In this document: one piece after another, positions 32,154-32,511 of the stretch
Numbering within the stretch: the first letter of the stretch is position 1
Layout: each line of letters starts with the position of its first letter
Origin: Eledone cirrhosa
Taxonomy: Eukaryota
Length of the DNA: 64,000 bases
Assembly (NCBI GenBank): GCA_964016885.1
Contig: OZ024764.1
Span: 9,300,001 to 9,364,000 of the forward strand
Direction: 5' to 3'
Made by a program: the position numbers and the translations under genes
The notes under the pieces: generated by a model
Databases searched by the model: none
Told to the model about the DNA's origin: nothing
What the model saw: the letters and a program-made list of their open reading frames with translations, nothing else

Positions 32154-32511
32154 ATATCACAGAAAAAAAGAGAATCAGTGTTGCAATGAATGGAATTTAT
32201 TGGACATATTACAATCGTTTCTCTGGCAACCAGCTTGAGGCATGATCGATGTGATGATCGAACCTGACTCTGAAAATCGCAAGGTCTTCAGATACGTCTT
32301 GATTCTATGAAGCAGATTTTCCTATGGAAGCAGATTTTACTATGGAAAATCTGCTTCGTAGAATCAAGACGTATCTGAGGAGCTTACGATTTTCAGAGTC
32401 AGGTTCGATCATCACATCGATCATGTCTGGAGCTGGTTGCCAGAGAAACGATTGTAATATGTCCAATAAATTCCATTCATTGCAACACTGATTCTCTTTT
32501 TTTCTGTGATA
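32154..32511. mobile_element. Fold-back palindromic element (about 160-bp arms) with a hammerhead core on each strand, family E
   Basis: Arms are reverse complements. Plus strand: GACGTAT-CTGAGGA...GAA-ACGATTGT-A-ATATGTC (32368-32463). Minus-strand copy with CTGAAGA at 32203-32298. Confidence 0.75.

What the first reader, a model, noticed from the sequence alone, without database searches (positions are those of the whole stretch)
32154..32511. Ambisense palindrome with a hammerhead core on each strand and a very long stem II
Seen: a 358-bp near-perfect palindrome. Plus and minus strands each encode a core with a 7-bp stem I, near-palindromic stem III (ACGATTGT), GUA triplet and about 63 nt folded between CTGANGA and GAAA. 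Inference: transcription in either direction gives a rod-like RNA containing a ribozyme, superficially viroid-like. The long hairpin would compete with ribozyme folding and would be an ADAR or Dicer substrate.
Basis: partly seen in the sequence, partly recalled or inferred. Interest (0 to 1): 0.72.

Follow-up and report, generated by a model that had tools for sequence, protein, structure and literature searches.

The report
Retrotransposon stub with long-armed hammerheads
This palindrome is two head-to-head copies of the end of a Penelope-type jumping gene, a well-known layout, and each copy carries a hammerhead-shaped RNA motif whose second arm is about 60 letters long and kept across many related families, likely as a handle for the element's own protein; self-cutting is untested.

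Summary
In detail: 168-bp arms with 7 mismatches and one CUGANGA…GAAA core per strand. The viroid-like reading does not. The palindrome is two 5'-truncated pseudo-LTRs of a Hydra-clade Penelope-like element, joined head to head in a (TA)n tract. Of 37 sampled family sites, 24 have this layout, with variable joints and a tail on one arm, as is published for these elements. It is likely made anew at each insertion. In a read-through RNA the hammerhead fold is predicted absent, both arms are decaying, and the copies show no editing or cleavage footprint. The motif is the less ordinary part. It is a type I, dimer-style hammerhead with a 60–63-nt helix II, present in at least 9,738 copies. It shows compensatory changes across 11 subfamilies and sits in three ORF-linked lineages. 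Rfam misses it. Published Hydra hammerheads have 12–26 nt there. One amplified subfamily has an altered core yet keeps the distal helix. Cleavage is untested. This scan noted a similar palindrome in another genome.

The parts
32091..32154 (-). One-sided 'tail' extension of the left arm (element positions +138 to +217, about 14 nt shorter than in other copies), ending in (TA)n
32155..32326 (-). Left arm: inverted 5'-truncated pseudo-LTR of the Hydra-clade PLE, 5' end at element position -35
32203..32298 (-). Type I hammerhead motif: core CTGAAGA 32291-32285, helix II 32284-32222, GAAA 32221-32218, predicted cut after 32210
   Evidence: (83 bits; this copy is in the model's seed)
32196..32201 (-). 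AATAAA directly after stem I (poly(A)-signal-like; function inferred)
   Evidence: also seen in other subfamilies
32323..32343 (.). Joint between the arms, with an imperfect 18-nt tandem duplication (32309-32326 / 32327-32344)
32344..32511 (+). Right arm: direct 5'-truncated pseudo-LTR, element positions -31 to +137, no tail, ending in (TA)n
32368..32463 (+). Type I hammerhead motif: core CTGAGGA 32375-32381, decayed helix II 32382-32444, GAAA 32445-32448, palindrome 32448-32455, predicted cut after 32456
   Evidence: (76.5 bits; in the seed)
32465..32470 (+). AATAAA directly after stem I
62651..62745 (+). Decayed copy of the same long-helix-II motif from a diverged subfamily (E), with CTGATGA, G10.1-C11.1 and GUC

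Best explanation
The palindrome is two 5'-truncated end repeats (pseudo-LTRs) of a Hydra-clade Penelope-like retrotransposon joined head to head in a (TA)n tract, likely written in one insertion event, and each repeat carries a hammerhead-shaped motif with a conserved 60-63-nt helix II that likely serves the active element rather than this copy. Shown: the anatomy, the family, the link to RT plus GIY-YIG ORFs, the recurring layout and the conservation. Inferred: an RNA starting about 34 nt before the core is copied twice, uncut, from two internal start sites (+137 and +217), once from each nicked target strand, and the two cDNAs are joined at their truncated ends. Inferred: in active elements the core cuts weakly, as a dimer through the stem III palindrome or with help from the element's protein. 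Inferred, about 40%: the distal helix II is a binding handle for that protein. This copy is likely inert and decaying.
For: Full elements L082/L083 read: inverted truncated copy, tail, ORF, about 1.9-kb 3' region, motif. The ORF has the Hydra marks RWR, DKT, CxCx5C and CxxC/CxH. Of 37 sites, 24 are head to head and 0 tail to tail; 23 of 24 pairs have one short and one longer arm; 3' ends fall at +137 (28 of 64 arms) and +217 (28 of 64); 21 of 64 5' ends lie at -26 to -35; 0 of 64 lie at the cut site. This layout is described in PMC3846280 and PMC8557442. Two internal RT starts, both-strand extension and a protein-assisted hammerhead are shown for another PLE in PMC11167929. Structure on 35 copies: 82% of cells paired against 28-37% when slid; 113 double-change cells against 43 shuffled (0 of 500); the stem III palindrome is kept through four different sequences. 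Self-duplexes are -5.8 to -13.3 kcal/mol against +2.4 for the monomer hairpin. Core and helix II decay at 2.4% and 2.8%, like the leader at 2.7%.
Against: No cleavage, binding or expression data. The hammerhead fold is not the lowest-energy fold in any of 33 copies (0.2 to 21.6 kcal/mol above it; 10 and 7 for the window arms). RNAalifold recovers 13 helix II pairs on one alignment but almost nothing on the wider one (-0.2 kcal/mol). The number of covarying pairs does not beat the shuffles (118 of 500), and related sequences inflate the other measures. Most distal pairs barely vary, so their pairing rests on one double change at 29-70 and a few G-U changes. Families were found partly through the distal module, which biases its 94% identity upward. 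Pfam gave GIY-YIG only below its cut-off (E 0.0018) and nothing for the RT pieces. The start site at -34 is read from truncation points only.
Confidence: 0.8

Rival explanations
1. The palindrome itself is a mobile, viroid-like or retrozyme-like unit that makes rod-shaped self-cutting RNA from both strands.
For: Palindromes are the commonest form of the family (24 of 37 sites). Two loci share one joint (L009 and L010). Arms of one locus share rare variants more often than arms of different loci (0.6% against 0.11%; 4 shared CpG changes in the window).
Against: Joints and arm lengths vary widely, and the two outer ends are unequal. The antisense arm comes first in either direction, and the fold probability in the full hairpin is below 1e-15. 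The same end flanks RT-EN ORFs. The shared joint sits at a short fold-back match beside the truncation hot spot. Shared variants also fit one variant template or arm-to-arm repair.
Confidence: 0.04
2. The motif is a hammerhead relic: cutting has been lost or relaxed, and the extended helix II is what selection keeps, as RNA (protein binding or translation) in the 5' leader.
For: Subfamily F has the core CCGTCGA (U4C plus A6U) in 9 of 11 copies and keeps the distal module. Lineage J has an extra core nucleotide. Position 10.1-11.1 is non-standard in 23 of 35 copies. A6 changes, an insertion after A6 and U4C lower activity (PMC3088659). No arm starts at the cut site. Hammerhead mutants still insert in vitro (PMC11167929).
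Against: C3, A9 and GAAAC are invariant, and G5, G8, G16.2 and U16.1 are at least 90% conserved in 35 copies. Stem I and the stem III palindrome keep pairing through double changes. Non-G-C 10.1-11.1 pairs, including C-A, appear in published PLE hammerheads.
Confidence: 0.3
3. The conserved distal sequence is a DNA-level internal promoter or splice signal of the pseudo-LTR, and its RNA pairing is incidental.
For: It lies about 50-95 nt after the inferred start. PLE pseudo-LTRs hold internal promoters and introns (PMC8557442). Many of its positions are near invariant.
Against: CAG/CTG becomes TAG/CTA in lineage J, and basal pairs switch together. A YAG candidate 3' splice site is absent in subfamily F.
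Confidence: 0.12

Closest known systems
Inverted 5'-truncated pLTR insertions of endonuclease-containing Penelope-like elements (PMC3846280, passages read; PMC8557442 Fig. 2 legend)
   Same: Head-to-head inverted pLTRs, optional one-sided tail, microsatellite target, variable truncation.
   Different: Here the tail is about 80 nt rather than 30-40 nt, and most sampled copies are bare two-arm stubs with a sharp 5' limit near -34.
Hydra clade of C-terminal EN+ PLEs, e.g. Hydra-1_Obim (PMC8557442 section 11; supplement part 2 and passages read)
   Same: RWK-like motif, DKT, CxCx5C linker, CxxC/CxH around E and N, (TA)n targets, type I hammerhead in the end repeat.
   Different: About 5 kb rather than under 3 kb. 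There are 60-63 nt between CUGANGA and GAAA, against 12-26 nt in the 26 Hydra rows of File S2 (23 nt in Hydra-1_Obim; my count).
Minimal type I hammerheads of metazoan PLEs (PMC4209133, parts 1-2 of 4 read)
   Same: Type I topology, palindromic minimal helix III predicted to need a dimer, larger than usual helix II, opposite-strand pairs 100-700 bp apart already noted.
   Different: Helix II there is 7-8 bp. Here it is a bulged rod of about 20 bp with a conserved 4x4 internal loop, and G10.1-C11.1 is often absent.
PLE-X1_sMoe and PLE-X1_sTam hammerheads (PMC8557442 File S2, marked as deviating)
   Same: A PLE hammerhead with a long insert in helix II (54 nt in PLE-X1_sMoe, my count).
   Different: Plant, endonuclease-less, single families; no conserved distal module is reported in the table.
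Viroids and retrozymes (PMC6765202 passages; bioRxiv 10.64898/2026.07.22.740005 abstract start and term search only)
   Same: Hammerhead core; rod-like predicted RNA.
   Different: No tandem monomers or fixed unit here; the two polarities come from DNA inversion, not from a replicating circle.

Membership tests
Hydra-clade Penelope-like element | Single ORF with PLE-type RT and C-terminal GIY-YIG endonuclease | tested here: met
   Broken ORF pieces in L082/L083. Pfam GIY-YIG E 0.0018, below cut-off. Atlas GIY-YIG clusters at 0.93-0.95. RT motifs match Hydra-1_Obim by eye. A related 861-aa open frame lies in L290.
Hydra-clade Penelope-like element | RWK-like motif, DKT, CxCx5C linker, CxxC and CxH, no CCHH | tested here: met
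   RMRWRA, PDKTG, CNCRVGEEC, CKLCLSE and CRH; criteria. Absence of CCHH was judged by eye.
Hydra-clade Penelope-like element | Grouping with published Hydra proteins in a tree | not tested
   The tree holds only this genome's proteins.
Hydra-clade Penelope-like element | (TA)n targets, pLTRs, inverted truncated copy, optional tail | tested here: met
Type I hammerhead ribozyme | Core CUGANGA, GAAA and NUH in a three-way junction | tested here: met
   Both window arms; 50 of 60 family A copies have CTGAGGA. Subfamilies F and J deviate.
Type I hammerhead ribozyme | Helices I, II and III supported by compensatory change | tested here: met
   Double changes in 5 of 7 stem I pairs, 8 of 12 basal helix II pairs and 2 of 2 palindrome pairs. 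Distal pairs are mostly invariant, and relatedness is not controlled.
Type I hammerhead ribozyme | G10.1-C11.1 closing pair (common, not universal) | tested here: not met
   C-A in family A; standard in 12 of 35 copies overall. Exceptions are published.
Type I hammerhead ribozyme | Match to an Rfam hammerhead model | tested here: not met
   None at gathering score or at E up to 10; the models do not expect a 63-nt helix II (inference).
Type I hammerhead ribozyme | Site-specific self-cleavage | not testable with these tools
   No assay. 0 of 64 arms begin at the cut site, which speaks only to the templates used.
Viroid-like RNA or retrozyme | Fixed monomer unit, tandem direct repeats with same-sense ribozymes | tested here: not met
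   Variable inverted joints; direct tandems at 2 of 37 sites.
Viroid-like RNA or retrozyme | Circular RNA | not testable with these tools
   No RNA holder listed.

The most novel reading that the evidence does not exclude
One lineage of Hydra-clade Penelope elements has grown hammerhead helix II into a 60-nt module with a conserved 4x4 loop that the element's protein recognises. The module is kept even where the catalytic core has changed, so a ribozyme has been turned into a protein-loading or protein-gated switch. Such hammerheads, about 10,000 here, are missed by Rfam and by short-spacer descriptors.
Probability: 0.3. Interest if true: 0.62.

Novelty: new variant of a known kind. Interest (0 to 1): 0.38.

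Why it matters
Why Penelope elements keep hammerheads is open: one tested example cuts only with protein and is not needed for insertion (PMC11167929). A family series in which the core drifts while a long side arm is held gives a natural way to separate cutting from binding. It also shows that standard searches undercount hammerheads. The palindrome itself is ordinary, although its sharp ends map the likely RNA start and the two copying starts.

Tried and rejected
Rfam found no hammerhead; the miRNA hits are below their thresholds and reflect the hairpin centre. No RNA holder was listed. Contigs of four runs of unknown kind show the family and many different joints ending near 32344, but no piece spans the locus, and they say nothing on expression. 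The pattern scan of metagenome contigs gave 0 matches, so range beyond this genome is untested. The protein search for longer relatives of the endonuclease found none (weak). A genome-wide scan with the RNA model was not available, so copy number rests on an exact pattern and is a lower bound. I first took endonuclease hits near L107, L089 and an RT hit in L097 as belonging to family C; they are separate insertions, and the link was shown later with L297. One search used one seed in the wrong orientation and was redone. An alternative CUGA/UCAG pairing that would switch the core off appears in family A folds but does not covary in CCG-core subfamilies, so it was not pursued. An intron ending at CAG inside helix II was considered and is unsupported. 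A kink-turn was rejected by eye (recalled consensus). Lünse et al. (PMC5785218) is not held and was seen only as cited in PMC6765202; it may describe long-helix variants. Literature searches showed no title or passage on a 60-nt helix II in animal PLEs; 'long helix II' in PMC13725137 means 6-8 bp. Repbase and the supplements of PMC4209133 were not seen.

Full report
OBSERVATION. The palindrome is real. Arms 32155-32322 and 32344-32511 pair with 7 mismatches in 168 bp around a 21-nt centre that holds an imperfect 18-nt duplication. Each strand has a 7-bp stem I, CTGANGA, 63 nt, GAAA, ACGATTGT and GUA. A hammerhead descriptor finds 9 sites in the window against a mean of 0.01 in 100 shuffles. 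Rfam finds no hammerhead. The left arm runs on for about 64 nt to 32091, and both ends lie in (TA)n.

THE ELEMENT. One arm had 2,342 candidates in the 3.0-Gb genome, of which 40 were scored. A 32-base exact pattern occurs 804 times, with 0 for the control. Walking upstream led through about 1.9 kb of shared non-coding sequence to a GIY-YIG-like frame and RT pieces. L082 reads: inverted truncated copy, tail, ORF, 3' region, motif. The ORF shows RMRWRA, DKT, a CxCx5C linker and CxxC/CxH around the conserved E and N, which are the listed marks of the Hydra clade (PMC8557442 section 11). Its RT motifs resemble Hydra-1_Obim by eye. Pfam gave GIY-YIG below its cut-off for 1 of 8 pieces and nothing for RT. 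The Atlas gave GIY-YIG clusters at 0.93-0.95. The host is probably a cephalopod (recalled features, not tested).

THE PALINDROME IS A BY-PRODUCT. The first 30 matches on contig C1 of each of two patterns collapse to 37 sites. Of these 24 are head to head, 0 tail to tail, 11 single and 2 other; two of the last 13 also have an inverted partner that missed my thresholds. In 23 of 24 pairs one arm is short and the other longer. Of 64 arms, 28 end at +137 and 28 at +217. The 5' ends pile up at -26 to -35 (21 of 64), only 5 reach further upstream, and none starts at the predicted cut (+82). The pattern biases against cut-site starts; that does not. This layout is published (PMC3846280 passages; PMC8557442 passages), and opposite-strand hammerhead pairs were noted in PMC4209133. 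PMC11167929 (passages and part 2 of section 3) shows extension on both strands, two internal RT starts that define the tail, use of uncut RNA, and a hammerhead that cuts only with protein. I infer an RNA starting near -34, copied twice in one event. Arkhipova's self-priming on an antisense template is an alternative route to the same layout. Against full independence of joints: L009 and L010 share one, and arms of a locus share rare variants at 0.6% against 0.11% between loci.

THIS COPY IS LIKELY INERT. In either direction the antisense arm is made first. In the full palindrome the hammerhead stems have probabilities below 1e-15, and alone the hammerhead fold of the arms lies 16 and 11 kcal/mol above the best fold. 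The plus arm differs from the family majority at 6 positions and the minus arm at 4. Their helix II z-scores are +0.08 and -1.17, against -2.1 to -3.2 in six other family A copies. Across 115 arms, non-CpG change is 2.4% in the 5' core, 2.8% in helix II and 2.7% in the leader, and A>G equals T>C. So there is no sign of selection on copies or of edited templates. The 3' regions look more conserved only because the patterns selected them.

THE MOTIF. Diverged subfamilies turned up beside family A copies and by further searches. A 24-place pattern for the 3' half of helix II plus GAAAC has 9,738 matches, with 0 for the control. In 165 copies, six clusters of 3 or more held 137; 28 copies in small clusters were dropped. 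Between these clusters the identity was 88% in the core, 94% in the distal module, 60% in the basal helix, 48% in stem I and 57% downstream; anchoring on the distal module inflates its figure. On a MAFFT alignment of 35 copies from 11 hand-labelled subfamilies, my structure has 82% of cells paired (28-37% when slid) and 113 double-change cells (43 shuffled, 0 of 500), including CAG/CTG to TAG/CTA at the base of the distal module. The count of covarying pairs was not above the shuffles (118 of 500), relatedness is uncontrolled, and RNAalifold did not recover the structure on this alignment, though it gave 13 helix II pairs on a narrower one. The stem III loop changes among GATT, ATAT, AATT and GCGC and stays self-complementary, favouring a dimer over the monomer hairpin, as in known PLE hammerheads.

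LINK TO PROTEINS. The motif lies before ORF starts in lineage A, in J/K (about 60% identical over the N-terminal 133 aa) and in C/F (about 40%). Subfamilies B, D, E, G and M were not tied to an ORF. In a tree of 12 proteins (2 of 14 skipped, family A among them), the 8 rows from long-helix lineages form one side of a branch (100/99). The tree is unrooted, and two rows were labelled by kinship only. Other lineages have spacers of 26 and 33 nt, and seven further motifs in the window have 26-36 nt. The 26 Hydra rows of PMC8557442 File S2 have 12-26 nt, and a plant PLE reaches 54 nt (my counts).

SIGNS OF RELAXED CATALYSIS. Position 10.1-11.1 is non-standard in 23 of 35 copies, although C-A and U-U are published. 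Subfamily F has CCGTCGA in 9 of 11 copies, and J has an extra core base. Similar changes lower activity (PMC3088659 passages). C3, A9 and GAAAC were invariant in the 35 aligned copies.

VERDICT. The palindrome is a known kind of insertion (about 95%). The motif is likely a real conserved RNA fold (85%). Cutting in active elements is about 55%, and in this copy under 10%. For the distal helix, protein binding is my best guess (40%), ahead of tertiary docking (25%), a DNA-level signal (about 12-20%) and a role in translation (10%). It is a new variant of a known kind; I found no description of it in six searches, but Repbase, PMC5785218 and some supplements were not seen. Interest 0.38.

Noticed in passing
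window 20239-20309, 31461-31536, 33132-33197, 34344-34419, 43301-43371, 60948-61017 (+) and 43125-43194 (-): Seven further type I hammerhead motifs with palindromic stem III and 26-36-nt helix II, from at least three other repeat families; the two near 43.1-43.4 kb form another head-to-head pair.
   Followed up: partly
window 62651-62745: Decayed copy of long-helix subfamily E; 1,042 candidates in the genome.
   Followed up: yes
L222, L229, L235, L203 and others: Amplified subfamily F with core CCGTCGA (U4C, A6U) and a weakened CAG/CTG helix; a relative (L290) has an 861-aa open frame.
   Followed up: partly
L193:2051-2105, L217:2363-2417: Short-helix hammerheads with a non-G-C 10.1-11.1 pair, picked up by the model.
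   Followed up: no
window 31741-32008: SINE-like repeat followed by about six tandem copies of a 42-nt unit, just left of the palindrome.
   Followed up: no
window about 21300-27500: Long 10-nt-period G/T-rich satellite with strong strand skew.
   Followed up: no
window 57787-57857 (-): Single tRNA-like match at 37 bits, probably a pseudogene or SINE head.
   Followed up: no
window 32155-32511; L187, L009, L059, L078: The two arms of one locus share rare variants about five times more often than arms of different loci, suggesting arm-to-arm repair or one variant template.
   Followed up: partly
L260-L299, upstream of the ORF start: A short motif (GAGCGCTT) lies just before the start codon in nearly all Hydra lineages fetched, whether their helix II is long or short.
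   Followed up: no
L020, L044, L025, L003: Another abundant (TA)n-flanked palindromic repeat with perfect internal arms lies beside many copies.
   Followed up: no
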